From Candidatus Magasanikiibacteriota bacterium (GTDB lineage: Bacteria > Patescibacteriota > Patescibacteriia > Magasanikbacterales > GWA2-37-8), in NCBI GenBank assembly GCA_030650025.1, contig JAUSEN010000016.1, positions 9,428 through 73,427 on the forward strand: a stretch of DNA of 64,000 nt, in the 5' to 3' direction. The notes under the pieces are model-generated. The model did no database searches. It worked only from the letters and a program-made list of their open reading frames with translations, and had not been told where the DNA came from. A program made the position numbers and the translations under genes. Of this stretch, positions 482-35,895 are shown in pieces; positions within the stretch are counted from its first letter, which is position 1, and every line of letters starts with the position of its first letter.

Positions 482-3352
482 ATGAGATGGCTAGGATTAA
501 AAAGGCGTCCGGCGCGCCGTGTTTATGGCGCTATTGGCACGGGTGTTCCCCAATACAAACGCCGGTTTAAGGCGCCGCGTTTTAAAATTCCGTGGCGGCG
601 GCTTTTGGTTTTGGCTTCGGTGGCCGCGGCCTTTTGTTTTGTGTTTGGCACGGGCGTGGTTTTGTGGGTGAGCCGCGATTTGCCTGACCCTAATAAACTT
701 AAAGAGCGTCAAGTAGCGGAAAGCACTAAGATTTATGACCGCACGGGCACGCATCTTTTATATGAAGTTTACCAAGATCAAAAAAGAACGATTGTGCCGC
801 TCGACCAGATTTCGCCTTTGGTAGTGAAGGCGACAATCGCGGTGGAAGACAAATATTTTTACGAACACAGAGGAATTCGCTTGGTAAGCATCGCGCGGGC
901 GGCGTTTAATAATTTAATCGGCCGTAAGCAGGGCGCGGGCGGAGCCTCCACCATGACACAACAGCTGATTAAGAAAACCGTGGTAGGTGACGAACGCCGC
1001 GGGCTCTCGGGACTGGGCCGTAAAATTAAAGAAGCCATTTTAGCGATTCGTTTGGAACGTAAATATACTAAAGATCAAATTGTTCAGCTTTATTTGAACG
1101 AGATTCCATATGGCTCCACTAACTACGGCGTGGAAGCGGCGGCGCAAACCTATTTTCGCAAAAGCGCCAAAGACGTGACACTAGCGGAAGCCGCCACGCT
1201 CGCCGCCATGATTAACCGCCCGAGTTTTTATTTAAATAATCGAAATGCTTTACGCAATCGCCGCGATGTGGTTTTGCGGCTGATGCAAGAACAGGGGTAT
1301 ATAACTCTTGAGGAGAAAACCAGCGCGCAAAACGAGGCCTTGCGTTTATATAGCGGCGCTAATTTGAAAGATGCTCCGCACTTTGTTTTATATGTTAAAC
1401 AGCTGTTGGCCGACCAGTTTGGCGAAAGCGCGATTGACACCGGCGGCCTACGAGTAATTACCACGCTGGATTATGATAAGCAGAAATTAGCCGAGCAAAT
1501 TATTAAAGAACAAGGCGATAAGTACGCGAAAGAGTCTAACGCGGACAACGCGGCCTTAGTGGCGATAGACCCCCAGAGTGGGCAAATTCTGGCTTTAGTC
1601 GGCTCGCGCGATTATAACGACGATAAGATCGACGGCCAATTTAACGTGGCGGTGTCGGGGCGGCGCCAGCCGGGTTCAAGCTTTAAGCCTTTTGTTTATA
1701 CCTTGGCTTTTCAAAAAGGATATACGCCCGCGACCGTGGTGTATGATGTTCAGACTGACTTTGATTTACGGGATGGGAACCAGGTGTATAGCCCTAAAAA
1801 TTATGATGGGAAGGAACACGGCCTCGTGACATTTCGCTCGGCTTTGCAAGGGTCGCTTAATATTCCCGCGGTAAAAGTGCTGTATTTGGTGGGGCCGACC
1901 ACCACTATTGAGTTTGCCAAAAATTTTGGCTACACCACATTTGGTGATAGTAATTTGTATGGTTTGAGCTTGGTTTTGGGAGGAGCGGAAGTCAATTTAT
2001 TAGAACACACTAATGCTTACGCGACGCTCGCTAATAACGGCGGCCACTTCGCGCCCGAAGTAATTCTAAAAGTCACTAATGTTAAGGGCGAAGTTTTAAA
2101 AGAGTGGCAGGAGAGTGAACCGAGCATCGTAGTGGCGCCCGAGATCGCGGCCACGATTACTAATGTTTTAAGCGATGACGCGGCGCGGGGGTCTCTTTTT
2201 GGCACGCGCGGTAATTTAACTTTGCCAGATCGCGCTGTGGCCGCTAAAACCGGCACGACCAATGATAACAAAGACGCTTGGACGCTGGGGTATGTGCCGA
2301 GTTTGGCGGCGGGCGTTTGGGTTGGGAATACGGCTCCGAAGCCAATGAAAGGCGGAGGCAATGCTTTGGCTGGGAAGATTTGGAATTTATTTATGCGGGG
2401 GGCTTTGGCTTCCACGACGCCAGATCAATTTTTGGCGCCGCCAAGCAACGACGCGACTAAGCCAGCCTTGCGCGGGTATGTGGGCGGAATTAGGCTCCCG
2501 ATTAATAAAATCACAGGTAAGATTGCTATTTCTTCAACACCCGAGGCGCTTATTGAGGCGCGGATATATTTGCCCCAACATGATATTTTGCATTATGTGA
2601 ATAAAGATGACCCGCGTGGCCCGGTGCCGAGCGACCCATACCAGGATGGCCAATACCAGAATTGGGAGAATGCTTTGATTGATTGGGTGAGTCGAGAGGC
2701 GGGGAAGGGACGGCTTATGAGCCTGCAAGATCCGCCTACCGAGTATGATGACAGCACGGCCAATGAATTTTCGCCGACCATAAAAATTTTAGCGCCAACT
2801 AGTAACCAGGTGTTTAACAGCCGCCAGCTTAATATCAGTGTCGCGGCCGGGGCGCCGCGCGGAGTGGCGAGCGTAATTTATTCGCTTGATAGCCAAACCA
2901 TCGGCGAGTCTAAGCAGTACCCATTTAACTTGGATTATTACATGACGGCGTTGCCACCGGGCGAGCATGTGCTTAAAGCGGTCGCGACTGACGAAGAGGG
3001 CGCGGCCGGGAGCGACCAATTGAATTTTTATCTGCGCGCGGATTATGACACGCCGAACTTCGATTGGCTAGACCAGTCGCCGCTTAATTTGACAGCCGAG
3101 GATTTCCCTCGAGCGATGCTTTTGAAGCCATATCAGTGGGATAATATTAAAGATATTCAAATTTATTTAAAAACTGATATAACCGAGAGAGCTATTTTTA
3201 ATTTTAATCATGCCGAGGACAAGGTAGTGAATGGCCAGCTGATGTTTACTTGGCGCAAGAGCCCGGGGTTCGGGAGCCACACTTTGCGGGCGGTTTTGAC
3301 AGATAAAGACGGACGTAAGATTGAAAAGGTGCTCAATATTGAAGTGAAATAA
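482..3352 (+). CDS. class A penicillin-binding protein (transglycosylase/transpeptidase) with long C-terminal extension
   Basis: N-terminal TM segment; glycosyltransferase motifs (EDKYFYEHRGI, RKQGAGGASTMTQQL); transpeptidase SxxK (GSSFKPF) and KTG(T) motifs. About 250 aa of extra C-terminal Ig-like sequence. Confidence 0.9.
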   Translation: MRWLGLKRRPARRVYGAIGTGVPQYKRRFKAPRFKIPWRRLLVLASVAAAFCFVFGTGVVLWVSRDLPDPNKLKERQVAESTKIYDRTGTHLLYEVYQDQKRTIVPLDQISPLVVKATIAVEDKYFYEHRGIRLVSIARAAFNNLIGRKQGAGGASTMTQQLIKKTVVGDERRGLSGLGRKIKEAILAIRLERKYTKDQIVQLYLNEIPYGSTNYGVEAAAQTYFRKSAKDVTLAEAATLAAMINRPSFYLNNRNALRNRRDVVLRLMQEQGYITLEEKTSAQNEALRLYSGANLKDAPHFVLYVKQLLADQFGESAIDTGGLRVITTLDYDKQKLAEQIIKEQGDKYAKESNADNAALVAIDPQSGQILALVGSRDYNDDKIDGQFNVAVSGRRQPGSSFKPFVYTLAFQKGYTPATVVYDVQTDFDLRDGNQVYSPKNYDGKEHGLVTFRSALQGSLNIPAVKVLYLVGPTTTIEFAKNFGYTTFGDSNLYGLSLVLGGAEVNLLEHTNAYATLANNGGHFAPEVILKVTNVKGEVLKEWQESEPSIVVAPEIAATITNVLSDDAARGSLFGTRGNLTLPDRAVAAKTGTTNDNKDAWTLGYVPSLAAGVWVGNTAPKPMKGGGNALAGKIWNLFMRGALASTTPDQFLAPPSNDATKPALRGYVGGIRLPINKITGKIAISSTPEALIEARIYLPQHDILHYVNKDDPRGPVPSDPYQDGQYQNWENALIDWVSREAGKGRLMSLQDPPTEYDDSTANEFSPTIKILAPTSNQVFNSRQLNISVAAGAPRGVASVIYSLDSQTIGESKQYPFNLDYYMTALPPGEHVLKAVATDEEGAAGSDQLNFYLRADYDTPNFDWLDQSPLNLTAEDFPRAMLLKPYQWDNIKDIQIYLKTDITERAIFNFNHAEDKVVNGQLMFTWRKSPGFGSHTLRAVLTDKDGRKIEKVLNIEVK

Positions 3353-3595
3353 GAAATCGTTGGGTTTGGTAACGATCCATTGACAAAATGGGTATTTTAT
3401 GGTATGATAATGCGTTCGAAGGGTTGTTTTTAAGCCTTTCGAATGAAGCTGTAGTTCTTTACAATTTAGACAATTTGACCATTGAAATTAGCAGTTTTCC
3501 TACCGGGAACAAAGTTTTGTAATCATACAAATCTTTTTCCCCGGTAGGACTCGTCTTGAGTTCTCCGTGCGGCTTCCAGCAGGAGGAAGAACGTC

Positions 3596-4510
3596 ATGAC
3601 CAAGACCTGGTTTGAGGGATTCAGCAAGGCGGCCATCTTGGCCGCGACCCTGCTCGTGGGGTTCACGAGCGCGGGGTGCGAGGAGAGGAAGGCTTCTCTC
3701 CTCATCACCATGACCTTCGATCCGTCGGTCTCCGAGGAGACGAGGGTCGAGGTCCGGCAGGTTGGAACGGTTCTCCGCCTCGCCGTGTCCGGCGTCGAGG
3801 AGTTGGCCGGCGATGGCAAGCTCGAGAGCCAGTCGCTCGACACGGACAAGCAGACCCTCCGGTATCGCCCGCTCGTCCAGAGCGGTCGTCTCAACTTCCA
3901 TATGGTGTTTTACAGTGGAAGGGATGTCGCGGTCCCGCTGATCTTCGGGCGGGGAGCGGGCGACATCCAGGCCGGCATCGAAGTGCCGGTCGCGGTCGTC
4001 CTCTTCCCCTGTGCAGGGGATCAAACAAACTGCCCGGGGAAGATTCCGGACAAGAAGTGCACTCGTGACGACGAGTGCAACCCGGGCTTCTCCTGCGATG
4101 TGCCGAGCGGTCGGTGCCTGCAGAAGCAGGACCAGCCGGACGCGGCCGCGCCCGTCGACATGGCCACGCCGCCGGATCTCACCCCGATCCCGGATCTCCA
4201 GATCGAGATCGAGAAGGTCTTCCGGGTGATCAAGGCCGGATCCGCAGTATGTTGCGAGATCCGCGATGTCCGGGGCAATTGGCTCGAGGACATCAAGATC
4301 GCGGACGGAACCGAGATCAAAAACCCTAAGGCGAAGTACTGTTTTCCCTTCGCCAAGGGGCTCGACATCACCGGCCGGTGCAACTTGCCGGAGGCGGTCA
4401 TCGCCCTCGGCCAGGGGCGTGACGGGTGCGTCAAGAAGGGAGGTCGCATCGACACCCCCAGCTTCAACTGGACGGAGGGGGGGATCGCGGACGACTGCAG
4501 TCAGAAGTAG
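3596..4510 (+). CDS. Cys-rich lipoprotein, hypothetical, encoded in a high-GC island
   Basis: Lipobox LVGFTSAGC after a signal peptide; strong SD (caggaggaag) 6 nt upstream. GC of about 65% and GC3-rich codons, unlike the flanking genes. Confidence 0.55.
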   Translation: MTKTWFEGFSKAAILAATLLVGFTSAGCEERKASLLITMTFDPSVSEETRVEVRQVGTVLRLAVSGVEELAGDGKLESQSLDTDKQTLRYRPLVQSGRLNFHMVFYSGRDVAVPLIFGRGAGDIQAGIEVPVAVVLFPCAGDQTNCPGKIPDKKCTRDDECNPGFSCDVPSGRCLQKQDQPDAAAPVDMATPPDLTPIPDLQIEIEKVFRVIKAGSAVCCEIRDVRGNWLEDIKIADGTEIKNPKAKYCFPFAKGLDITGRCNLPEAVIALGQGRDGCVKKGGRIDTPSFNWTEGGIADDCSQK

Positions 4511-4654
4511 CTGGCCCGAACCGCCGCGGGCCGGTCGTAGTAGCCTTCTCGCCTAGTACGTACGAAGAGCGAGAAGACCCCCAAACCTCCTCGCTCCTTA
4601 TGCCCGCAAATATTGTGGTTATAAGGAGTGAGGTTTGGGTGGTAAATTCTAATA

Positions 4655-4690
4655 TTAAAATAACCCGCCTCATCGGCGGGTTATTTTAAT
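4655..4690. terminator. bidirectional intrinsic terminator (aacccgcc-tcat-cggcgggtt + T tract) after ruvB
   Basis: Perfect GC hairpin at 4662-4682 flanked by A and T tracts, lying between convergent genes. Confidence 0.55.
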
Positions 4691-4692
4691 AG

Positions 4693-5736
4693 TTATAATA
4701 GAGTTTGGGCTTGGGGAGCAGGAAAGCCGAGGTGCCGATACGCGGCCGGGGTAGCTTTGCGGCCGCGGGCCGTGCGCTCTAAAAAGCCCATTTGTAATAA
4801 AAATGGTTCGTAGACTGTTTCAATTGTGTCCATTTCTTCGCCAATGGCCGCGGCTAAGGTATTAAGGCCGACCGGGCCGCCCTGAAATTTTTCGATTAAG
4901 GTAGTAAGAAGGCGGCGGTCAATTTCGTCTAAACCAAATTCGTCCACGCCCAGCATACCAAAGGCCTCGCTGGCAATATTTTTAGTAATAGCTCCGGTGC
5001 CTTTAATATCCGCTACGTCACGAATACGTTTAAGAAGGCGGTTAGCAATCCGCGGAGTGCGGCGCGCGCGCGAGGCAATGGCGGCGGCCGCGTCCGGCTC
5101 CAGCGGGGATTGTAAAATTTGCGCGTTGCGGTGAATGATTTTTTCAATGTCAGGGGTTTCGTAAAAATTTAGGTGGTAAGTGTGGCCAAACCGATCGCGC
5201 AGAGGCCCGGAGAGGAGGGAGAGCTTCGTGGTAGCGCCAATAAGCGTAAAACGATTTAGGGGCATGCGGATTGTTCGGGCGGCCGGGCCTTTGCCTAAAA
5301 TAATATCAAGCGAATAATCTTCGAGCGCGGGGTATAGTATTTCTTCGATAGTTTTATTCAAACGGTGGATTTCGTCGATAAACAAAACCTCGCCTTCTTG
5401 GAGGTTAGAGAGAATGGCCGCGAGGTCGCCAATTTTTTCTAGGGCTGGCCCCGAGGTTACTTTAATTCCGGCTTGCATCTCGCGGGCAATAATGTGGGCG
5501 AGCGTGGTTTTGCCAAGGCCCGGGTTGCCGTAGAGAAGAACATGTTCCAGCGGTTCGGACCGTTTTTGGGCGGCGGCAATACTAATACCCAGATTTTGTT
5601 TAATCTGTTCTTGGCCCACAAAATCTTGGAGTTCGCGAGGGCGGAGGGTGACGTCTAAAATTAGCTCGTCAGATTGCTCGGCGGGTTCCACCACACGCTC
5701 CTCATTACTTTCTGGATTTTGATTTTCTTCAGTCAT
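4693..5736 (-). CDS. ruvB: Holliday junction branch migration helicase RuvB
   Basis: Walker A LLYGNPGLGKTTLAHIIA and RuvB-typical N and C domains across the full-length translation. Confidence 0.9.
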   Translation of the reverse strand: MTEENQNPESNEERVVEPAEQSDELILDVTLRPRELQDFVGQEQIKQNLGISIAAAQKRSEPLEHVLLYGNPGLGKTTLAHIIAREMQAGIKVTSGPALEKIGDLAAILSNLQEGEVLFIDEIHRLNKTIEEILYPALEDYSLDIILGKGPAARTIRMPLNRFTLIGATTKLSLLSGPLRDRFGHTYHLNFYETPDIEKIIHRNAQILQSPLEPDAAAAIASRARRTPRIANRLLKRIRDVADIKGTGAITKNIASEAFGMLGVDEFGLDEIDRRLLTTLIEKFQGGPVGLNTLAAAIGEEMDTIETVYEPFLLQMGFLERTARGRKATPAAYRHLGFPAPQAQTLL

Positions 5737-27849: not shown

Positions 27850-29796
27850 ATGCGGAATTTATTTTTGGTAAATTTTAACCAGTTGGCCCGGGCCATTATA
27901 GCGGCCATGGTGTTATTAGCGCCGATTAGCCCGGCCTTGGCCGTAGCGCCGTTTATGCCGCCGCCCATTAATTTAGCGCTGGTGCCCGGAGTCGGCGTGG
28001 TAACTTTGTCATGGAATCCGGGCGCTAATGGCACTGGAAATGAAGAAGCGTACGATATTCAGCAGTCCACTGATGGACAAAATTTTGTTGATATTGGAGT
28101 TGTTTTTAATACCGGGCAAAATAGTTATTCGCGCGCTGTTTCCGGATTAGCGTACGACACAGAATACTGGTTTAAAGTGGCGGGGTATCAACCACCTGGC
28201 ACTTATTCTGACTGGGTAGTAGCCGGGTCGGTTTCCACATTAATAGAAAATCCGGCGCCGCCAACTGCCAGCGGCCCCACTAATTCCACGCTTAATTTAA
28301 GCTTTTCCGCGCCAGCTAATAATCCGGCGACCGTTAAATATGGATTTTACAACATGACATTAGGATCCTATTTAAAGGAAGATGGTTCCGCCGCGAATCA
28401 GGAGAATGTGTTTTTAGCGGCTCCCAATGATCCGCGTTGGACTAATTTTAAGGCCATTGGTTTGTCACCGAATACGGCTTACCGATTTGAAGTTAAAGCG
28501 CAGGGCGCCAATACCGAGAGCTGGTCTGGCGACAGCGCGGCCGTACGCACTTTGGCCAATCCACCCACTAACCTGCAAGCGACCGCGGCCAGCGCCACTA
28601 GCGTTACGGTAAGCTGGGGGGGCGACGCGGTAACTTCTTACAACGTAAAAAATACCAGCACCGGCGCGGAATCGGGTTGGCGCACGGGCACGTCTTACGC
28701 TTTTACCAACCTCACTTGCAACACTAATTATAACTTTACCGTTCAAAGCCGCAACAGCGACAATGTCGCGGGCGCGGCCGTGGCAGTGTCCGGCACCACC
28801 GCGGCTTGCCCCGCAGAGCCGCCACCGGTCCAACCCACCTTGACCTCGGTCTCGGCCGCGGCCAATAGCAATACCAGTATTACCGTTAGTTGGAATGGCA
28901 CGGCCAGCAATTATTTTGTTCAGAATGCTACCGACGCTACCAATTCCGGCTGGATTAGCGGCAATTCTTATACTTTCAATAATTTAATTTGTAACACTAC
29001 CTATAACTTTACTGTTCAAGGCCGAAATACCGGCGGCACTTTGACAGCGCAGTTGTCGGTAACAGCGCAAACTAAGGCCTGTGGCTCGCCGCCTCCTTCT
29101 GCCACCACCACTACGCCTCCGCGGTTTCCTTTGCCAGCGACTTGCCCGGCCACGTTAGCACCCGGTAGTATGATTAAAGTGCGGGGCAAGCCTCCGATAT
29201 ATGTTTTAAATGCTCAATTTCAAGTGTTGCATTTTCCGAGCGGCGATGAATTTAAGAGCTGGAACGCGGATGATAAATACGGCGGCTATATATTAGTCGA
29301 AGAGAGCTGTTTCGATGATTTGCCACTGCCGTCAATTTTCCCGGTGGGTGTAAATTATCGGCCCGGGAGTTATGTGGTTAAAAAAAGTTCGTCCGACCAG
29401 CTTTACGCGGTATTGCCGAATGATTCTTTAGCTAAAATTACCGAGCGCGCCGCGCGCGATCTTTACGGCGCAAATTTTATCCCTAAAGTAATTGCTGATA
29501 TATCTTGGCTGAACTATATAAAAAGGGGGGTGGATATTACCGAAGCTAAAGCTCACGTGGGTATGCTGGTGCGCCAAAATGCCAAGAATTGGTATATCGA
29601 ACCTCATTTTAGTACGGGTCGCTTATGGTTGCGCGAAGTAACCGCGGCTGGTTTTACGGCCAACCGATTTAAATCCATTTTTATTAGAACAGTCCCGGCA
29701 ATCGCGGTGGCAGATTACCCTGTGGGCGCGCCAATTACCACTGATGAGTCTAGGATTAGTAACAGAATTTATATATACGTCCAGCCTCCCACATGA
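27850..29796 (+). CDS. secreted fibronectin type III repeat protein with unknown C-terminal domain
   Basis: Signal peptide; several FN3-like repeats (SWNPG..., TVSWGGD..., TVSWNGT...) with recurring CNTNYNFTVQ motifs. Confidence 0.6.
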   Translation: MRNLFLVNFNQLARAIIAAMVLLAPISPALAVAPFMPPPINLALVPGVGVVTLSWNPGANGTGNEEAYDIQQSTDGQNFVDIGVVFNTGQNSYSRAVSGLAYDTEYWFKVAGYQPPGTYSDWVVAGSVSTLIENPAPPTASGPTNSTLNLSFSAPANNPATVKYGFYNMTLGSYLKEDGSAANQENVFLAAPNDPRWTNFKAIGLSPNTAYRFEVKAQGANTESWSGDSAAVRTLANPPTNLQATAASATSVTVSWGGDAVTSYNVKNTSTGAESGWRTGTSYAFTNLTCNTNYNFTVQSRNSDNVAGAAVAVSGTTAACPAEPPPVQPTLTSVSAAANSNTSITVSWNGTASNYFVQNATDATNSGWISGNSYTFNNLICNTTYNFTVQGRNTGGTLTAQLSVTAQTKACGSPPPSATTTTPPRFPLPATCPATLAPGSMIKVRGKPPIYVLNAQFQVLHFPSGDEFKSWNADDKYGGYILVEESCFDDLPLPSIFPVGVNYRPGSYVVKKSSSDQLYAVLPNDSLAKITERAARDLYGANFIPKVIADISWLNYIKRGVDITEAKAHVGMLVRQNAKNWYIEPHFSTGRLWLREVTAAGFTANRFKSIFIRTVPAIAVADYPVGAPITTDESRISNRIYIYVQPPT

Positions 29797-30437
29797 AATT
29801 ATTTATAGACTCCGCTGTAATCAATGAAATCAAAACCGCCGTGAGCTGGGGGATGGTTGATGGCGTAACCACCAACCCGACTTTAATTATGCGGGCGGGT
29901 AAAGATTTTAAGACCACTATTTTAGAAATTTGTAAGATGGTTTCGGGCCCCGTGAGCGCAGAAACTATTTCGCCGGATGCTGAAGGCATGATTAGAGAGG
30001 GCCGGGAGTTTGCCAAGTGGCACAAAAATGTTTACGTAAAAGTGCCGTGCACGTCCGAGGGGCTTAAAGCCTGCCATGAATTAACTAAACTTGGAATAAA
30101 AGTAAATGTGACGTTGGTATTTTCGGCGAATCAGGTTTTGCTCGCGGCCAAGGCCGGAGCCGCGCTAATCTCACCCTTTGTGGGGCGTTTGGTAGACGCG
30201 GGTGAAGACGGCATGAAAATGATTCAAGAGGCAATGGCGATAATTAACAACTATCATTTTGCGGCGCGATTACTCGTGGCTTCGGTACGCGACACGCGCA
30301 TGGTAACAGACGCGGCCATACTCGGCGCGCACATTGCCACGGTGCCGTTTAAGGTGCTGGAGGCGATGTATAGACACCCGCTGACTGATAAGGGGATCCA
30401 AACTTTTTTAGAAGATTGGGCTAAAGCTAAGAAGTAA
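29793..30437 (+). CDS. transaldolase / fructose-6-phosphate aldolase family (short form)
   Basis: MKLFIDSAVINEIK...GVTTNPTLI and the KVP Schiff-base lysine region. Confidence 0.8.
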   Translation: MKLFIDSAVINEIKTAVSWGMVDGVTTNPTLIMRAGKDFKTTILEICKMVSGPVSAETISPDAEGMIREGREFAKWHKNVYVKVPCTSEGLKACHELTKLGIKVNVTLVFSANQVLLAAKAGAALISPFVGRLVDAGEDGMKMIQEAMAIINNYHFAARLLVASVRDTRMVTDAAILGAHIATVPFKVLEAMYRHPLTDKGIQTFLEDWAKAKK

Positions 30438-30529: not shown

Positions 30530-32310
30530 GGTGCGTACCGCAAAAAGGTCGTTTTTTACGACCGCCACGTCCCCTGCACCAGAACGCTTCGCGTCCGGTT
30601 CAGGGCTTCGCAGTCTAGCTCTGGCTACTAGCGAAGCGCCACTCGGGACCTCTAGAAAATTGCGTAGCTTACACAAAAAACGATGTATATTGCTACAAAA
30701 TTTACTCGAGTTACTCCAAGTGGTTAAAAACCCCACCCATTTTATTGGGCCGCTTGGAAAAGCGGCTTTTATTATTTTGGTCGGCTCAGATCGGTGAGAC
30801 AGAGATTTCTCCCCGCTCTAGGCGGGTCGAAATGACAGTGCAGAGTGGACTGGCTGGTACTTTGACAATTCAGGCAAGCACCATGCACCACCATAAACCA
30901 CAAGGGTTTATGGCAAACAAGGGTGCATGGCTAAATAACCATGAACCACAAGGGTTCATGGCAAGATTAATGCTTATTTTAAACATCAAGGTCTGGTGTT
31001 TAAAATAATAAAGGGTAACTTCATAAACATGAATATTGTCATGAAAAATTATGAAGTCAACTCAACGTAAGCACCATTTGGTGTTTTCGTTGTGTGCAAT
31101 TTCAACAAGAGCATATGGTGGATGCCTAGACACTAAAAGATGAAGAAGGACGTTGCAAGGTGCGATAAGCCTCGGGGAGCTCCTAAGCAAGCTGTGATCC
31201 GGGGATTTCCGAATGGGGAAACCCGTTACAAAGAAATTTGTAACATCGTATACTGAATTCATAGGTGTACGAGGAAGACCTGGCGAAGTGAAACATCTCA
31301 GTAGCCAGAGGAAAATAAATCGAAGAGATTCCCTTAGTAGTGGCGAGCGAAAAGGGATCAGCCTAAACCTTATACATGTTGTTGCCGTAACAGATTGATC
31401 GCAAGGTTAATTATGAGCGGCAGTTTAAAGACGCAGGTCGTTGTGTATATGGTGTAATAAGACAATTACGCGTCCGCCCTGCGGCGGACGGTGAAAATGT
31501 GACTTTCCTAGTAGAACGCTCTGGAACGAGCGGCCGCAGAGGGTAAGAGCCCCGTACGCGAAAGGAGTCTATATAATCATGGTAGTTGTTCTTGAGTAGG
31601 GCGGAACTCGTGAAATTCCGTCTGAATTCGGGCCGACTATGGTCTAAGGCTAAATACTTTTAGTGATCGATAGTGGACTAGTACCACGAGGGAAAGGTGA
31701 AAAGTAGCCCGGTGAGGGCGATGAAATAGTATCTGAAACCATATGTTTACAAAGAGCGGAAGACCGGAGTACCCAGAATTATTCCCCCCTACGGGGGGAA
31801 TAATTCTGGGTCCTGGTCGACCGTGTTCCTATTGAAGAATGAGCCTGCGAGTGTGCTGTATGTCGTTGCTTAAACCCTTCTGGGGTGGAGGCATAGCGAA
31901 AGCGAGTCTTAACGGGCGTATATAATGGCATGCACATAACCCGAAACCGGGTGAGCTATCCATGACCAGGATGAACCCTTCCGAAAGGAAGGGGGAGGTC
32001 CGAACACACGAGCCGTGCAACACTCGGTGATGAGTTGTGGATGGGAGAGAAATTCTAATCGAACTCGGTGATAGCTGGTTCTCCTTGAAATAGTTTTAGG
32101 ACTAGCCTCGCGCGTTCCCTTTGGCGGTAGAGCACTGGATGAGACTCGGGTCCTTCGGGATACCAGTTTCAATCAAACTCCGAATGCCGAAGATTAAAAG
32201 CGCGGGAGTCAGACTGTGGGGGCTAAGCTCCATAGTCAAAAGGGAAACAGCCCTGATCGCCAGCTAAGGTCCCTAAATCCATATTAAGTGTGAAAGGTGG
32301 TGTTAACTCT

Positions 32311-32348
<38 letters not shown>

Positions 32349-33172
32349 TAAAGAAAGCGTAACAGCTCACTGGTCAAGAGTTTTCGCGCCGAAAATGTAC
32401 CGGGGCTAAATATGGTACCGAAGCTGCGAATTGGTAGATCCTCCGGGATTTACCTCTGGTAAAGGAGCGTTGGTAGCTGCGCTGAAGCCATAGCCGCGAG
32501 GCGTGGTGGAGTGCTACCAAGTGAGAATGCAGGCATGAGTAACAATAAGGGAAGTGAGAATCTTCCCCGCCGAAAATCCAAGGTTTCCTGGGCAACGAGA
32601 CTCGACCCAGGGTTAGTCGATCCTAAGGCCAGGCCGAAAGGCGTAACCGATGGAAGAGCAGGTTAATATTCCTGCACTTGGTATAGTTTGTTTGTTAGTG
32701 CGCATAGTGAAGCTGACAGCGTGTTTTGAATATACACGTTTCTTTACCCCGACGTGAAGTCGGGGCAGGGACGAAGATGAAGCCTTCGGGTGGAGTCAAC
32801 TGTCGGGGACGCTGTGCCTAGAAAAGCTAATAAACGTTAAGCTATATCAAACCGTACCGTAAACCGACACAGGTAGGTGAGTCGAGAAGACTAAGGCGTA
32901 CGAGAGAACCCTCTTTTAGGAACTCTGCAATACAGCGGCCGTAACTTAGGGATAAGGCCCGCCCCGATGTAAAAATCGGGGTTACAACAAAAGACGCACT
33001 GCGACTGTTTACCAAAAACACAGCTCCCTGCAAAAGCGCAAGCTGAAGTATAGGGAGTGATGCCTGGCCAGTGTCAGAACGTTAAGGCGAGAGGTTATCC
33101 GGTCATCCGACCGGAGAAGCCTTGAACTGAAGCGCTGATGAACGCCGGCGGTAACTATAACCGTCCTAAGGT

Positions 33173-33408
33173 AGCGGACTTGAGAAATCGAGCACGCTAG
33201 GATTGGGACGGATATAGCAAAAAGTAAACAATCATTAAAGATGAGCAGAGTCATCGAAATATTAACAGCCATTCAAAAAATGCTACCTTGCTTTGCAGTA
33301 ATGCAAAGAATAATCCGGTCATAGCTTATGAGAGACTATACGCTATGCTCCTCCGACGAAACTCGGAGGAAGAAGATTTAGTCCTTCGTCATTAAACAGG
33401 AAACGAAG
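33173..33408 (+). mobile_element. group I-like intron (ORF-less), inserted after the U of GGU|AGCG (E. coli ~L1931, helix 69/70 region)
   Basis: The conserved ccgtcctaaggt.agcgaaattccttgtcgg is interrupted by 236 nt; the 5' exon ends in U and the insert ends in G. Confidence 0.6.
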
Positions 33409-33430
33409 AGCGAAATTCCTTGTCGGGTAA

Positions 33431-33682
33431 ACCAAGAACTTGCCCCCTGGTCGAGTAATTGACCTTGAAGCAATAGCTGTATCGGTGGAACCCATAAAAA
33501 ATCGTGCAGATTAATTATGGGCAATACCGAGGGAAGTCCTCCCAAAATGGAGTGACCCCGTAGAGACTACACGCTGTCTCCCGAGTTATTCGGGATGAAG
33601 ATATAGTCCGATCCTGCCGAGTAATTGGCAGCCCTACGAAAATCAAAAATCTAAAATCATAAATCGAAAATTCGTAGATGGA
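33431..33682 (+). mobile_element. second 23S insertion (~252 nt) within GGGUAA|GUUCCGACC (E. coli ~L1951-1953); intron-like, ORF-less
   Basis: Conserved flanks gggtaa and gttccgacctgcacgaatgg are contiguous in E. coli; boundaries are uncertain by 1-2 nt. Confidence 0.55.
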
Positions 33683-34208
33683 GTTCCGACCTGCACGAAT
33701 GGCATAACGATAGTGCGACTGTCTCAAAGAGGGACTCGGTGAAATTGCAAGGAAGGTGAAGATGCCTTCTACCCGCAACTAGACGAAAAGACCCCGTGAA
33801 GCTTTACTACAGCTTGCTATTGGTATACGTGCACGTATGTTGAGCGTAGGTGGGACCCGCAAGGGGCCAATGAGACACCACCCTTATGTATATGTATGCC
33901 TAATCTCTGCCCGTGAATCCGGGGAGGGAGACAGTGGCTGGCGGGTAGTTTATCTGGGGCGGATGCCTCCTAAAATGTAACGGAGGCGTTTACAAAGGTA
34001 GGCTTAGCGCGGATGGAAATCGCGCTGGACGTGCAAACGCAAAAGCCTGCTTTACTGCAAGGGCTACAACCCGCGCAGTTGCGAAAGCAGAAGTTAGTGA
34101 ACCGACCATCCTATATAGGAAGGTGGAAGATCAACGGATAAAAGCTACTCCGGGGATAACAGGCTGATCGCGCCCAATAGTCCACATAGACGGCGCGGTT
34201 TGGCACCT

Positions 34209-34573
34209 TAAATTATCGGGGTGCATACAAAGTGATTTGTTTCCAAGTTTTTTCGTCTAAAACAATTATGTTAAGATAGAAATAGAGATTTAAATCGGCT
34301 TATAACGGTGAACCCGTCATCCCGCCTAAGGCGGGATCGGCAATACCGTGGGAAGTCGCCCATTAACTGTGGGTTGACCCCGTAACGACTGACCCGAAAG
34401 GGGAGACTCGGTTACAGTTAGTAATCGGGTAATACGCCGACTCTTATATTAATCAAACTGAGATCATGCGACTCACGCCCCGAGCAAGTCCCGAAAGGGA
34501 CAAGTCGAGGGGTCCGCTAACATCCAGTATAAGAAGAAGATATAGTCTGCCCCATACGAAAGTATGGAATCAT
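34209..34573 (+). mobile_element. third 23S insertion (~365 nt) in the peptidyl-transferase-centre strand GGCACC|U(A)CGAUGUCGG (E. coli ~L2500); intron-like, ORF-less
   Basis: tttggcacc ... tacgatgtcggctcatc flanks; no long ORF inside. Confidence 0.55.
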
Positions 34574-34636
34574 GTACGATGTCGGCTCATCGCATCCTGG
34601 GGGTGAAGAAGCTCCCAAGGGTTTGGCTGTTCGCCA

Positions 34637-34688
<52 letters not shown>

Positions 34689-35124
34689 CTATCTGTTGCG
34701 GGCGCAGAATGTTGCAAAGACTCTTCCCTAGTACGAGAGGACCGGGAAGAATAAACCTCTGGTGTGCGAGTTGTTCCGTCAGGAGCATTGCTCGGTAGCT
34801 ACGTTTAGCACGGATAAACGCTGAAAGCATCTAAGCGTGAAGCCGTCTTTAAGATTAACATTCGTTATAGACCCCTTGTAGATTACGAGGTTGATAGGCT
34901 CTACGTGTAAGCACAGTAATGTGTTGAGCGGAGGAGTACTAATCGGTCGAGCGCACAACGAAAGCATTAAGTGGTGCTCACCTCTTCGGTGAGTCTACGA
35001 GTTATGTTTGCCATGTCATTCGACATGGCCTTGCCTGAATTTAGTCATTGTAGTAAACTATTTTGAAAATTCCCCCGCCAAAAGCGGGATCAGCTCGCTA
35101 ACGCGAGCCGAAAAAAGAACTAAT

Positions 35125-35236
35125 GTCTTGGTGGCTTTAAGCGAAGGGGTCACACCCGATCCCATCCCGAACTCGGCAGTTAAGCCCTTCTGCGCTGATG
35201 ATAGCCCAAGTGGCAAAAGTAGGCCGCCGCCAGGAC
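35125..35236 (+). rRNA. 5S rRNA
   Basis: cccgatcccatcccgaactcggcagttaagc matches the 5S loop B/C consensus (cf. E. coli cccacctgaccccatgccgaactcagaagtgaaac); terminal helix gtcttggtggc / gccgccaggac. Confidence 0.8.
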
Positions 35237-35295
35237 ATTGGTTCTTTTTTTATTTGACGCTGGTTTTCTTGTGTGGTAGTGTAGTTTCATAAACT

Positions 35296-35895
35296 TTGCT
35301 TATGGTTATTAAAGAGAATGCTATAATGCCACAGAAGTCCAGAATAATAGTCATTGGAGGCACATATGGAGTAGGAAAAACCAGCGCCGCCCACCAGTTA
35401 TCGGCTGATTTAGATATTCGTCAGCGCGGCGGTCTTGATGTTATCACCGACACCATGAAGGCTTTTTTAAAAAATTCTAAGTTGGTAGCCAACCTTTCTC
35501 GGTTTGAGGACGTATCAAAACAGGCTTTAAAAAATAAATTACATCGGGAGAGCAAATTTATTAGCAAAGCGATTAATACGATTATAGGTATCGCTGACAA
35601 GACAGGCGAAAGTTTTATAATAGAAGGCGTCCAAATTTTGCCGGAGTTTTTGCCGCTAGATCGTGTCCAATACTGTGTATTGAAGGTTTCCGACAGTCGT
35701 GAGCATCAACAGCGGTTCGAGTCGCCGTCTTTAATGCGCTTCCGGCATTATAATAATGCTAACTTTGGAGTGGTAAAAAAGTTGGAAGAGGTAATTTTGA
35801 GCGCGGTTGAACAGTATAAAGCGCCGATATTCGATAATGTGGTTCCTCTTGAGCAAACAGTATTAAATATTCGTAAATATTTTAGTTTAGTTTAA
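35296..35895 (+). CDS. P-loop NTPase / small kinase-like protein
   Basis: Walker A IVIGGTYGVGKTSAAH; no further assignment possible. Confidence 0.45.
   Translation: MLMVIKENAIMPQKSRIIVIGGTYGVGKTSAAHQLSADLDIRQRGGLDVITDTMKAFLKNSKLVANLSRFEDVSKQALKNKLHRESKFISKAINTIIGIADKTGESFIIEGVQILPEFLPLDRVQYCVLKVSDSREHQQRFESPSLMRFRHYNNANFGVVKKLEEVILSAVEQYKAPIFDNVVPLEQTVLNIRKYFSLV

What the first reader, a model, noticed from the sequence alone, without database searches (positions are those of the whole stretch)
33173..34573. Three ORF-less group-I-like insertions in the 23S rRNA (helix 69-71 region twice, peptidyl-transferase centre once)
Contiguous universally conserved 23S strings are interrupted by 236, ~252 and ~365 nt (E. 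coli-equivalent positions ~1931, ~1951-1953 and ~2500). These are known hot spots for group I introns; none of the inserts has room for a homing endonuclease. The first has the canonical exon-U/intron-terminal-G boundaries; the other two boundaries are ambiguous by 1-2 nt. Unspliced, they would disrupt the decoding-site bridge B2a and the PTC, so they must be removed.
Basis: partly seen in the sequence, partly recalled or inferred. Interest (0 to 1): 0.5.

Follow-up and report, generated by a model that had tools for sequence, protein, structure and literature searches.

The report
Three rRNA introns, one missing its core
The 23S rRNA gene of this uncultured CPR (Patescibacteria) bacterium is split by three small, protein-less group I introns, which is common in that group. 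[quoted passage not shown]

Summary
Aligned to E. coli rrlH, the 23S gene (31093-34959) carries inserts of 236, 252 and 368 nt after positions 1931, 1951 and 2500. None holds an ORF longer than 35 aa.

Each insert has an internal guide sequence complementary to its spliced exon junction, which fixes the boundaries:
- I1: 33173-33408
- I2: 33429-33680
- I3: 34209-34576

I2 is a canonical group I intron (Rfam 56 bits, U.G wobble, terminal G). The "ambiguous" base is G1952, a substitution also present in intron-less relatives.

I3 has a complete core (Rfam 40 bits, E 5e-8). It ends in A, whereas 8 of 8 other L2500 introns end in G.

I1 gets no Rfam hit. It belongs to a CPR L1931 intron family but lacks P4-P6: 74 profile positions correspond to 4 nt. 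Its splice-site U pairs with A instead of G.

The same deletion plus G-to-A change occurs in 7 other genomes or contigs, in two separate clades. The remaining helices still covary.

The nearest 23S genes are Ca. Magasanikbacteria MAGs. ORF-less group I introns in CPR 23S genes are already well documented. The P4-P6-less form appears to be a new variant. Splicing itself could not be tested.

The parts
31093..34959 (+). 23S rRNA gene (3867 nt) carrying the three introns. The 5S rRNA follows at 35127-35235. There is no 16S in the window.
   Evidence: Rfam LSU_rRNA_bacteria 2275 bits and 5S 76 bits.
33173..33408 (+). I1: L1931 group I-derived mini-intron, 236 nt, lacking P4-P6. It ends in omega-G at 33408.
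   Evidence: MAFFT versus E. coli. An nhmmer profile of 10 full-length family introns hits 33185-33326 (hmm 15-120, E 8.5e-12) and 33331-33404 (hmm 195-259, E 3.9e-10), so hmm positions 121-194 correspond to 4 nt. Alignment A1 shows the gap. No Rfam hit.
33173..33198 (+). I1 hairpin A: AGCG/CGCU plus CUUGA-GAAA-UCGAG. It starts at intron position +1.
   Evidence: Coordinates. The hairpin is present with different sequences in all family members.
33200..33316 (+). I1 P2 helix, GGAUUG (33200-05) with UAAUCC (33311-16). It encloses the variable region, the guide sequence and P2.1.
   Evidence: GGAUU:AAUCC alternates with GGACU:AGUCC and UAACU:AGUUA across relatives (sequences).
33281..33290 (+). 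I1 internal guide sequence UGCU-ACCUUG. ACCUUG pairs with the 5' exon UAAGGU (33167-72, P1, with a U1931-A pair). UGCU pairs with the 3' exon AGCG (33409-12, P10).
   Evidence: P1 pairing and IGS position; the P10 pairing UGCU:AGCG (including one G.U) was read by eye from the sequence. The GCU[G/A]CCU motif is conserved in the family.
33291..33308 (+). I1 P2.1 hairpin, CUUUGCA-GUAA-UGCAAAG (GNRA loop).
   Evidence: All 7 pairs show compensatory changes among the 8 deletion-type introns.
33320..33347 (+). I1 P3 (CAUAGC 33320-25 with GCUAUG 33342-47), with only the linker UUAUGAGA (33326-33) before the P7 5' strand GACUA (33334-38). The P4-P6 domain would normally lie here.
   Evidence: (the distance from P3 to P7 is 4-5 nt, against 62-76 nt in full-length relatives).
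33349..33407 (+). I1 P8 (33349-70), J8/7 AGAAGAUU (33371-78), P7 3' strand UAGUC (33379-83), and P9 hairpin (33385-33407) with an AGGAA loop.
33409..33428 (+). 20-nt mini-exon, E. coli 1932-1951 (AGCGAAAUUCCUUGUCGGGU), between I1 and I2.
33429..33680 (+). I2: canonical L1951 group I intron, 252 nt.
- P1 33425-30/33440-45 (U1951.G)
- P10 33436-41/33681-86
- P2 33449-64
- P3 33473-77/33573-77
- P4 33482-87/33525-30
- P5 33491-95/33517-21
- P6 33531-59
- P7 33565-69/33604-08
- P8 33579-95
- P9 33614-31
- P9.1 33634-77
- omega-G 33680
   Evidence: Rfam Intron_gpI 56.0 bits, above the gathering score of 50. Helices. Boundary from intron-less relatives reading GGGU|GAGUUCC.
34209..34576 (+). I3: L2500 group I intron, 368 nt.
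- P1 34203-08/34219-24 (U2500.G)
- P10 34215-18/34577-80
- P2 34227-40
- P3 34295-99/34436-40
- P4 34305-10/34344-49
- P5a 34321-35
- P6 34350-81
- P7 34387-91/34543-47
- P7.1 34393-402
- P7.2 34406-30
- extended P8 34442-534
- P9 34552-67
- the last base is A34576 (omega-A)
   Evidence: Rfam Intron_gpI 40.3 bits, E 5.5e-8. Helices. The eight other L2500 introns all end in G.

Best explanation
The window carries the 23S-5S rRNA genes of a CPR/Patescibacteria bacterium close to Ca. Magasanikbacteria. Three ORF-less group I introns interrupt the 23S gene at L1931, L1951 and L2500.

Each intron has an internal guide sequence that is a continuous complement of its ligated exon junction (P1 plus P10). 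The most likely fate is therefore removal from the pre-rRNA by guanosine-initiated, two-step group I splicing, which restores GGU|AGCG, GGGU|GAGUUCC and GGCACCU|CGAUG.

- I2 is a standard self-splicing ribozyme.
- I3 has a full core of IA-like architecture (it has P7.1 and P7.2). A terminal A replaces omega-G, so exon ligation is probably slower but still possible.
- I1 is a natural miniature. It keeps P1/P10, P2, P2.1, P3, P7 (the G-binding helix), P8, J8/7, P9 and omega-G, but it has lost P4-P6 and with it J4/5. In well-studied group I ribozymes J4/5 is the receptor for the splice-site G.U wobble (from my own knowledge, not from a paper read here). In step with that loss, the wobble G has become A.

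I infer that I1 is still excised through its P3-P9 catalytic half, probably with help from a host factor or from its own large 5' domain.

Shown here: the anatomy, the homology, the deletion and the covariation. Inferred: that splicing occurs, and how autonomous it is.
For: Inserts and exact sites:
- Positions.
- Rfam hits for I2 and I3.
- Complete helix sets with all standard pairs.

I1 homology and the deletion:
- The nhmmer profile of full-length relatives hits I1 in two pieces (E 8.5e-12 and 3.9e-10), skipping hmm positions 121-194.
- Alignment A1 shows the same gap.
- Rfam recognises the full-length relatives L155, L127 and L119 (58-61 bits) but not the deletion forms.

The deletion form is not an assembly accident:
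- It occurs in 8 independent assemblies (WIN, L167, L131, L173-176, L178).
- These fall in two separate clades.

The remaining helices are under structural constraint:
- 98.8% of cells are paired, 10 pairs show compensatory changes, and 0 of 500 shuffles reach this.
- Hairpins are conserved with different sequences.

Guide sequence and terminal base:
- The guide sequence has A in all 8 deletion forms and in L168, which has no P5/J4-5. It has G in every full-length member whose guide sequence was detected.
- All 8 deletion forms end in G.

Mobility and background:
- Presence and absence of L1951 and L2500 introns varies among the closest relatives, which fits mobile introns rather than expansion segments.
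- 82% of CPR 23S genes carry insertions, and 222 ORF-less group I introns were counted in CPR 23S genes (PMC11270868).
- A review states that the catalytic centre lies in the P3-P7 domain, with P4-P6 acting as a scaffold (PMC6257700).
Against: - No RNA data are available, so splicing of none of the three is shown.
[quoted passage not shown] From my own knowledge of solved ribozyme structures, the junctions lost with it also contribute to the active site. I1 may therefore be catalytically dead on its own.
- A U-A pair at the cleavage site and an omega-A are both known, from work on the Tetrahymena ribozyme (my own knowledge, not verified here), to impair splicing steps.
- The deletion-type sequences from the metagenome were retrieved with a pattern that required the P7 and J8/7 motifs. 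Their conservation of those motifs is therefore partly an ascertainment effect.
- A precedent exists for an unspliced L1931 intron (title of Everett 1999, seen).
Confidence: 0.7

Rival explanations
1. I1 is a catalytically dead relic that cannot self-splice. It is removed by a host or trans-acting factor, as proposed for the degenerate group I introns of lichen rDNA. Alternatively it is cut out by RNases without ligation, leaving a fragmented 23S rRNA. I2 and I3 self-splice normally.
For: - I1 has lost P4-P6 and the G.U wobble and gets no Rfam hit.
- Lichen rDNA group I introns are about 100 nt shorter than those of other fungi and fail to self-splice in vitro, yet they are absent from mature rRNA (PMC8527467).
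- CPR rRNA genes also hold insertions thought to be RNase III-type IVSs (PMC11270868).
Against: - The guide sequence, the G-binding helix P7, J8/7 and omega-G are all retained in two deeply diverged deletion clades, and the helices covary. A substrate that is merely cut by a protein would not need these.
- The ends of I1 do not pair with each other in the minimum-free-energy fold, unlike RNase III IVS stems.
- CPR genomes are small, and no candidate factor has been identified.
Confidence: 0.2
2. I1 is not removed at all. It stays in the mature 23S rRNA as a tolerated insertion at the base of H69-H71, as reported for the Simkania L1931 intron.
For: - The title of Everett et al. 1999 reads 'An unspliced group I intron in 23S rRNA...' (reference list), and that intron is at the same site.
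- Loss of a core domain is what relaxed selection on catalysis would produce.
Against: - A 10-nt guide sequence that still matches both exons perfectly, conserved between clades that are only about 56-60% identical overall, argues against neutral decay.
- So does the convergent G-to-A change, which preserves pairing.
- Position 1931 lies in domain IV at the subunit interface (established ribosome structure; my inference).
- All 8 deletion forms keep omega-G.
Confidence: 0.08
3. The oddities (omega-A in I3, the deletion in I1) are assembly or sequencing errors, or this is a pseudogene copy of the 23S gene.
For: The sequence evidently comes from a metagenome assembly. The omega-A rests on a single base in a single sequence.
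Against: - The I1 deletion is shared with 7 independent assemblies.
- The exons score 2275 bits against the LSU model, with all universal strings intact.
- CPR genomes usually hold a single 23S copy (PMC11270868).
- As extracted with fuzzy-matched exon anchors, a non-G terminal base also occurs in six full-length family members; for L155 the boundary is ambiguous and a terminal G is possible.
Confidence: 0.03

Closest known systems
Group I introns in CPR/Patescibacteria 23S rRNA genes (Brown et al. 2015, as cited in PMC9698310; Tsurumaki et al. 2024, PMC11270868)
   Same: Same host group and same gene. Sites 1931 and 1952(=1951) are named in that survey. Many of those introns are ORF-less (222 counted), and multiple introns per gene are usual.
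   Different: That survey classified introns with the Rfam model, so an I1-type element would fall among its 'uncharacterized' short insertions. A P4-P6-less form is not described there. Site 2500 is not named in the text I read.
Coxiella burnetii 23S rRNA introns Cbu.L1917 and Cbu.L1951 (Raghavan et al. 2007; title seen, paper not held)
   Same: Two group I introns flank a very short exon in the H69-H71 region (34 nt there, 20 nt here). One element lacks the canonical omega-G, as I3 does here.
   Different: The sites differ (1917/1951 there, 1931/1951 here). Here the non-G terminus is in the L2500 intron. Whether the Coxiella introns keep P4-P6 could not be checked, because the paper is not held.
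L1931 introns of Simkania and Thermotoga (Everett 1999; Nesbo & Doolittle 2003; titles seen)
   Same: Same insertion site after U1931. The Thermotoga title reports active self-splicing, and the Simkania title reports an unspliced intron.
   Different: From memory, not verified here: those introns are about 650-750 nt long and encode LAGLIDADG endonucleases. I1 is 236 nt, has no ORF and lacks P4-P6.
Degenerate group I introns of lichen-fungal nuclear rDNA (PMC8527467 and references therein)
   Same: rRNA-gene group I introns that have lost about 100 nt needed for catalysis, yet remain foldable and are absent from mature rRNA.
   Different: They are eukaryotic and nuclear, and are thought to depend on an evolved host machinery. 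Here the host is a bacterium with a reduced genome, and the loss is a clean excision of one whole domain.
The engineered view that the catalytic centre of the Tetrahymena ribozyme lies in the P3-P7 domain, with P4-P6 as scaffold (reviewed in PMC6257700)
   Same: I1 has the architecture implied by that view: P1, P3, P7, P8, P9 and peripheral elements, without P4-P6.
   Different: That picture comes from laboratory constructs. I1-type introns are natural and evolutionarily maintained. Their activity is unknown.

Membership tests
Group I intron (Rfam RF00028) | Covariance-model score at or above the gathering threshold (50 bits) | tested here: inconclusive
   I2 scores 56.0 bits and passes. I3 scores 40.3 bits (E 5.5e-8), below threshold. 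I1 gets no hit at E<=10, even on a 261-nt slice.
Group I intron | P1 formed by the 5' exon and an internal guide sequence, with a U.G wobble at the cleavage site, and P10 formed with the 3' exon | tested here: inconclusive
   I2 (U1951.G33443, implied by the P1 coordinates) and I3 (U2500.G34219) meet this. I1 has P1 and P10, but U1931 pairs with A33285, a U-A pair.
Group I intron | P3-P7 pseudoknot with the G-binding P7, P8, and the J8/7 consensus (AAGAUAUAGUC) | tested here: met
   All three introns have it. The motif recurs in 89 viral and 81 bacterial loci.
Group I intron | P4-P5-P6 domain, described as universally conserved (PMC6257700) | tested here: not met
   This row is for I1 only. 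P3 is followed after 8 nt by P7, and hmm positions 121-194 are absent. I2 and I3 do have P4-P6.
Group I intron | Terminal guanosine (omega-G) | tested here: inconclusive
   I1 ends in G33408 and I2 in G33680, so both meet it. I3 ends in A34576 and does not.
Group I intron | GTP-dependent self-splicing | not testable with these tools
   This needs in vitro transcription and splicing assays, or RNA-seq.
CPR L1931 intron family (defined here from the loci) | 5' hairpin starting at +1, GGAYUGGGAC motif, distal guide sequence GCU[G/A]CCU, P2.1 GNRA hairpin, P9 loop AGGAA | tested here: met
   Alignment A1. nhmmer E 8.5e-12 and 3.9e-10. Element-by-element listing.
Homing-endonuclease-carrying mobile intron | An intron-encoded LAGLIDADG or GIY-YIG ORF | tested here: not met
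   The longest ORF wholly inside an insert is 35 aa. Relatives carry 600-840-nt versions at the same sites.
RNase III-processed 23S intervening sequence (IVS) | Insertion at the helix 25 or helix 45 sites, with a long stem formed by the two ends of the insert | tested here: not met
   The sites are 1931, 1951 and 2500. The termini of I1 do not pair in the minimum-free-energy fold. A separate hairpin near Ec554 does look IVS-like.
Group II intron | Match to Rfam group II domains | tested here: not met
   There is no such hit in 31000-35300 at E<=10.

The most novel reading that the evidence does not exclude
I1 and its seven relatives are a natural class of P4-P6-less group I ribozymes that still splice out of an essential, probably single-copy rRNA. 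They would use only the P3-P9 half plus a pseudoknotted 5' domain. The class arose at least twice in CPR bacteria. Each time the splice-site G.U wobble was converted to U-A once its J4/5 receptor was gone.
Probability: 0.4. Interest if true: 0.7.

Novelty: new variant of a known kind. Interest (0 to 1): 0.5.

Why it matters
Group I introns in CPR rRNA genes are already documented, so two of the three inserts are ordinary.

The first one would matter to ribozyme biology. [quoted passage not shown] Here nature has removed it cleanly, at least twice, in a gene the cell cannot do without.

At the same time the guide sequence, the G-binding helix, J8/7 and omega-G remain conserved, and the splice-site wobble G has changed to A. 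From my own knowledge of group I ribozymes, J4/5 is the receptor for that wobble pair, so its loss and the G-to-A change look linked.

This gives a directly testable natural system for three questions:
- Is the P3-P9 half sufficient for splicing in vivo?
- What replaces the scaffold?
- Do J4/5 and the wobble pair co-evolve?

It also suggests that part of the 'uncharacterized' insertions in CPR rRNA surveys may be truncated group I introns missed by the Rfam model.

Tried and rejected
- **Rfam on I1 alone:** no hit at E<=10. Identification had to come from relatives.
- **A proximal guide sequence for I1:** my first manual models placed P1 in the 5' hairpin (33172-33201) and paired P3' with UAUAGC at 33213-18. 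I rejected both. In relatives the P3 partner that covaries is CAUAGC at 33320-25, and the conserved exon complement is at 33281-90.
- **Reading I2 as inserted after A1952 or A1953:** rejected. Intron-less relatives have G at 1952, and the U.G wobble is at U1951.
- **Using G34574 as the terminal G of I3:** rejected. It would leave two extra nucleotides (UA) in the peptidyl-transferase loop, and P10 (AUCG:CGAU) fixes the junction at 34576|34577.
- **Trans-supply of P4-P6 by a sibling rRNA intron:** made less likely. Locus L175 has a deletion-type L1931 intron and no other Rfam-detectable group I intron in its 23S gene.
- **The look-up of encoding contigs with the upstream transaldolase:** it returned only a 3.9-kb contig that stops before the 23S gene.
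- **One metagenome hit (L177):** a false positive, a full-length 395-nt intron.
- **Papers not held:** Raghavan 2007 and Everett 1999. Only their titles are cited.
- **Literature search for natural introns 'lacking P4-P6':** it found nothing. This shows only that the held library lacks such a phrase, not that such introns are unknown.
Full report
**1. What is there**

Rfam finds one bacterial LSU rRNA at 31093-34959 (+), followed by a 5S rRNA at 35127-35235. There is no SSU rRNA anywhere in the 64-kb window. The gene is 3867 nt against a 2925-position model.

A global MAFFT alignment to E. coli K-12 rrlH (locus L001) puts three large insertions in the gene:
- after E. coli 1931: 33173-33408, 236 nt
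- after 1951/1952: 252 nt
- after 2500: 34209-34576, 368 nt

Two smaller expansions lie near Ec275 and Ec554. No ORF lying wholly within an insert exceeds 35 aa. Two details need correcting: the third insert is 368 nt and ends at 34576, and the second is exactly 33429-33680.

**2. Which organism**

I scanned one genome per bacterial species for a J8/7 motif followed at 10-40 nt by the 3' exon of site 1931. This returned 81 loci.

The 23S exons of the window are closest to MAGs labelled Candidatus Magasanikbacteria and to other Patescibacteria. L167, L155, L127, L168 and L119 are 77-92% identical over two exon segments. The transaldolase gene upstream of the 23S is syntenic in L167 and L168. 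The window is therefore from a CPR bacterium.

For this group, a survey found insertions in 82% of 23S genes. Of those insertions, 45% were classed as group I by Rfam, and 222 ORF-less group I introns were counted. Recurrent sites include 1917, 1931 and 1952. 23S genes are usually single-copy (PMC11270868). Reviews attribute the first report, with metatranscriptomic support for excision, to Brown et al. 2015 (PMC9698310).

**3. I2 (33429-33680)**

Rfam Intron_gpI scores 56.0 bits, above the gathering score of 50. All helices P1-P9.1 can be written with standard pairs.

The guide sequence GAACUUGCCC (33436-45) is complementary to GGGU|GAGUUC, with U1951 in a U.G wobble.

Intron-less relatives (L155, L168, L106, L114, L132, L163) read GGGUGAGUUCC contiguously. 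Six of the eighteen L1951 introns listed, all from the window's closest relatives (the window included), are followed by GAGUUCC. So G1952 is a lineage substitution in the H71 loop. I2 is a fully canonical L1951 intron ending in G33680.

**4. I3 (34209-34576)**

Rfam scores 40.3 bits (E 5.5e-8), below gathering. The Rfam alignment starts 40 nt into the insert, so it misses the real P1.

By hand, the set P1, P2, P3, P4, P5a, P6, P7, P7.1, P7.2, an extended P8, and P9 is complete. P5 itself was identified only by eye and was not checked by script. P7.1 and P7.2 are the peripheral elements of IA-type introns such as Twort (PMC6257700). The subgroup assignment is my inference.

The guide sequence AUCG-GGGUGC complements GCACCU|CGAU. 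This places the splice junction exactly at U2500|C2501, with a U.G wobble.

The last intron base is then A34576. The eight other bacterial L2500 introns in the fetched loci all end in G. A bacterial rRNA intron that 'lacks the canonical omegaG' has been reported in Coxiella (title of Raghavan et al. 2007; the paper is not held). This rests on one base in one assembly and needs read-level confirmation.

**5. I1 (33173-33408)**

Rfam gives nothing, even at E<=10 on the isolated slice. Yet the 3' third carries GAGACUAUACGCUAUGC-hairpin-GAAGAUUUAGUCC. This is the P7-P3'-P8-J8/7-P7' signature, which also recovers 89 viral-contig introns.

The short L1931 introns of CPR relatives form a family with these features:
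- a hairpin starting at intron position +1
- a GGAYUGGGAC motif
- a guide sequence GCU[G/A]CCU lying about 90-110 nt downstream of the 5' splice site
- a 7-bp GNRA hairpin (P2.1)
- a helix GGAYU:ARUCC that encloses the guide sequence
- then P3, P4-P6, P7, P8 and P9

The full-length members L155, L127 and L119 are recognised by Rfam at 58-61 bits.

In the window, P3 (CAUAGC, 33320-25) is followed after 8 nt by P7 (GACUA, 33334-38). The multiple alignment shows a gap of about 70 columns where relatives have AUAUGCUGGGAA...CAAUCAGCAGGGAAG...CCCCUCA.

I built an nhmmer profile from ten full-length relatives, excluding the window and every deletion form. It hits I1 in two pieces:
- hmm 15-120 at 33185-33326, E 8.5e-12
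- hmm 195-259 at 33331-33404, E 3.9e-10

The 74 positions of P4-P6 and J6/7 thus correspond to 4 nt. The same profile matches I2 straight through its P4-P6.

I1 is therefore a group I intron from which the P4-P6 domain has been excised. This explains the Rfam miss.

Its guide sequence UGCU-ACCUUG (33281-90) complements UAAGGU|AGCG. That resolves the 4-nt AGCG boundary ambiguity in favour of U1931|A1932 with omega-G33408.

**6. The deletion form is recurrent and constrained**

The same architecture is present in L167 (Magasanikbacteria) and L131 (Nomurabacteria). A scan of metagenome contigs found five more (L173-176 and L178, 200-223 nt).

A neighbour-joining tree on the shared parts places them in two separate clades:
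- (WIN, L167), sister to L168, which keeps P4 and P6 but has only a loop in place of P5/J4-5. This group is nested among the full-length L155, L150 and L119.
- (L131, L173-176, L178), sister to a clade of full-length introns.

Every helix that remains (hairpin A, P2.1, P3, P8, P9) is kept, with different sequences.

On the MAFFT alignment of the eight deletion forms, P2.1, P3, P7 and the base of P8 give the following:
- 98.8% of cells are paired.
- 10 of 21 pairs show compensatory changes.
- The covariation score is 0.371, against 0.179 in shuffles.
- 0 of 500 shuffles reach the observed value.
- Structures slid by 1-3 columns give only 29-42% pairing.

All eight deletion forms end in G.

All eight, plus L168, have A in the guide sequence opposite U1931. 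Every full-length member with a detected guide sequence has G. The metagenome pattern allowed either base at that position. In the well-studied group I ribozymes, J4/5 recognises the splice-site G.U wobble (established knowledge from my own memory, not checked in a paper here). Its loss, followed twice by a G-to-A change that keeps the pair, is the pattern expected if P1 pairing is still selected but wobble recognition is not.

Caveat: the five metagenome sequences were retrieved with a pattern that required the P7 and J8/7 motifs. Conservation of those motifs in them is partly built in. The guide sequence and the P7 5' strand of WIN, L167 and L131 were not part of the pattern that found them.

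**7. How it most likely works**

For I2, the standard group I pathway is well supported by anatomy. For I3, it is the same pathway with a weakened second step.

For I1, I think excision through the retained P3-P9 half is most likely. That half contains the catalytic centre according to the reviewed literature (PMC6257700). The lost scaffold would be replaced by a host factor or by the intron's large 5' domain.

The rivals are these:
- A dead relic removed by other machinery. Lichen rDNA is the analogy: its degenerate group I introns are about 100 nt shorter, fail to self-splice in vitro, yet are absent from mature rRNA (PMC8527467).
- Excision without ligation.
- Outright retention, as the title of Everett et al. 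1999 reports for the Simkania L1931 intron.

Rescue by the P4-P6 of a neighbouring intron is less likely. L175 has a deletion-type intron but no other Rfam-detectable intron in its 23S gene. None of these alternatives can be settled without RNA data.

**8. Mobility**

The closest relatives differ in intron content:
- L155 and L168 have only an L1931 intron.
- L167 and L127 have L1931 plus a roughly 710-720-nt L1951 intron of a different type.
- L119 has short introns at both sites.
- L2500 introns occur in 8 other loci, none of them among the Magasanikbacteria-labelled MAGs closest to the window.

Versions of 600-840 nt at the same sites are long enough to carry endonuclease genes. This patchiness supports mobile introns rather than expansion segments. 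It also makes the ORF-less copies in the window look like endonuclease-free descendants.

**9. Verdict**

The inserts are real and group-I-derived, and in a CPR genome that is expected. The boundaries are now exact.

What goes beyond the known picture is that I1 belongs to a recurrent, structurally constrained, P4-P6-less form of the L1931 intron with a U-A splice-site pair. I found no such form described in the papers I could search.

I rate the finding as a new variant of a known kind, with interest 0.5.

Noticed in passing
window 31371-31491: A 121-nt expansion of the 23S gene after E. coli position ~275. It folds well (z -3.7). It is shared at 71-77% identity with relatives L167, L127, L150 and L119, so it is a lineage-specific expansion rather than an intron.
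   Followed up: partly
window 31783-31818 (fold of 31775-31825): A 36-nt insertion after E. coli ~554, which I take to be the helix 25 region. It forms a perfect 15-bp hairpin (AGAAUUAUUCCCCCC/GGGGGGAAUAAUUCU, z -5.2). From memory, helix 25 is a known site of RNase III-processed 23S intervening sequences.
   Followed up: partly
window 1-64000: No 16S rRNA gene lies within 31 kb upstream or 29 kb downstream of the 23S-5S pair, so the rRNA genes are unlinked. The 23S is flanked by a transaldolase/FSA gene (29793-30437) and a small AAA/kinase-like ORF (35296-35895).
   Followed up: partly
L175 3239-3314 (inside its 23S gene, 1913-5475): A tRNA-Cys(GCA) gene (Rfam 65 bits, also called by ARAGORN) lies on the same strand inside the span of a CPR 23S rRNA gene. 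This suggests a 23S gene split by an internal spacer that carries a tRNA.
   Followed up: partly
L155, L138, L162, L114, L102 (terminal A) and L127 (terminal C): 3' ends of their L1931 introns: As extracted with fuzzy-matched exon anchors, six full-length members of the CPR L1931 family end in A or C instead of the canonical G, directly after the P9 stem. For L155 the boundary is ambiguous and a terminal G is possible. A non-G terminal base may therefore be common in CPR rRNA introns.
   Followed up: partly
window 33397-33403 (I1 P9 loop CAGGAAA) and 33415-33422 (3' exon AUUCCUUG): The P9 loop motif AGGAA is conserved across the whole L1931 family and is complementary to UUCCU in the 3' exon (E. 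coli 1940-1944). This could be an extra exon-binding contact beyond P10. It cannot be tested by covariation because the exon is invariant.
   Followed up: no
window 33167-33316: The topology is unusual. The guide sequence of the L1931 family lies about 110 nt downstream of the 5' splice site, inside the domain closed by the covarying helix GGAYU:ARUCC. P1 and this P2 helix therefore cross, forming a pseudoknot.
   Followed up: partly
window 33681 (E. coli 1952): The H71 loop reads UGAGU instead of the usual UAAGU. The A1952G substitution is shared by 13 of the 82 sequences compared (81 fetched loci plus the window), with or without an L1951 intron.
   Followed up: yes
Viral contigs L003-L091: The motif AGACUANACGC...GAAGAUNUAGUC (P7-P3'-P8-J8/7) matches 89 phage or viral contigs. 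Some share a 22-nt identical stretch with I1 (GAGAGACUAUACGCUAUGCUCC), pointing to a common pool of intron cores in phages and CPR rRNA genes.
   Followed up: partly
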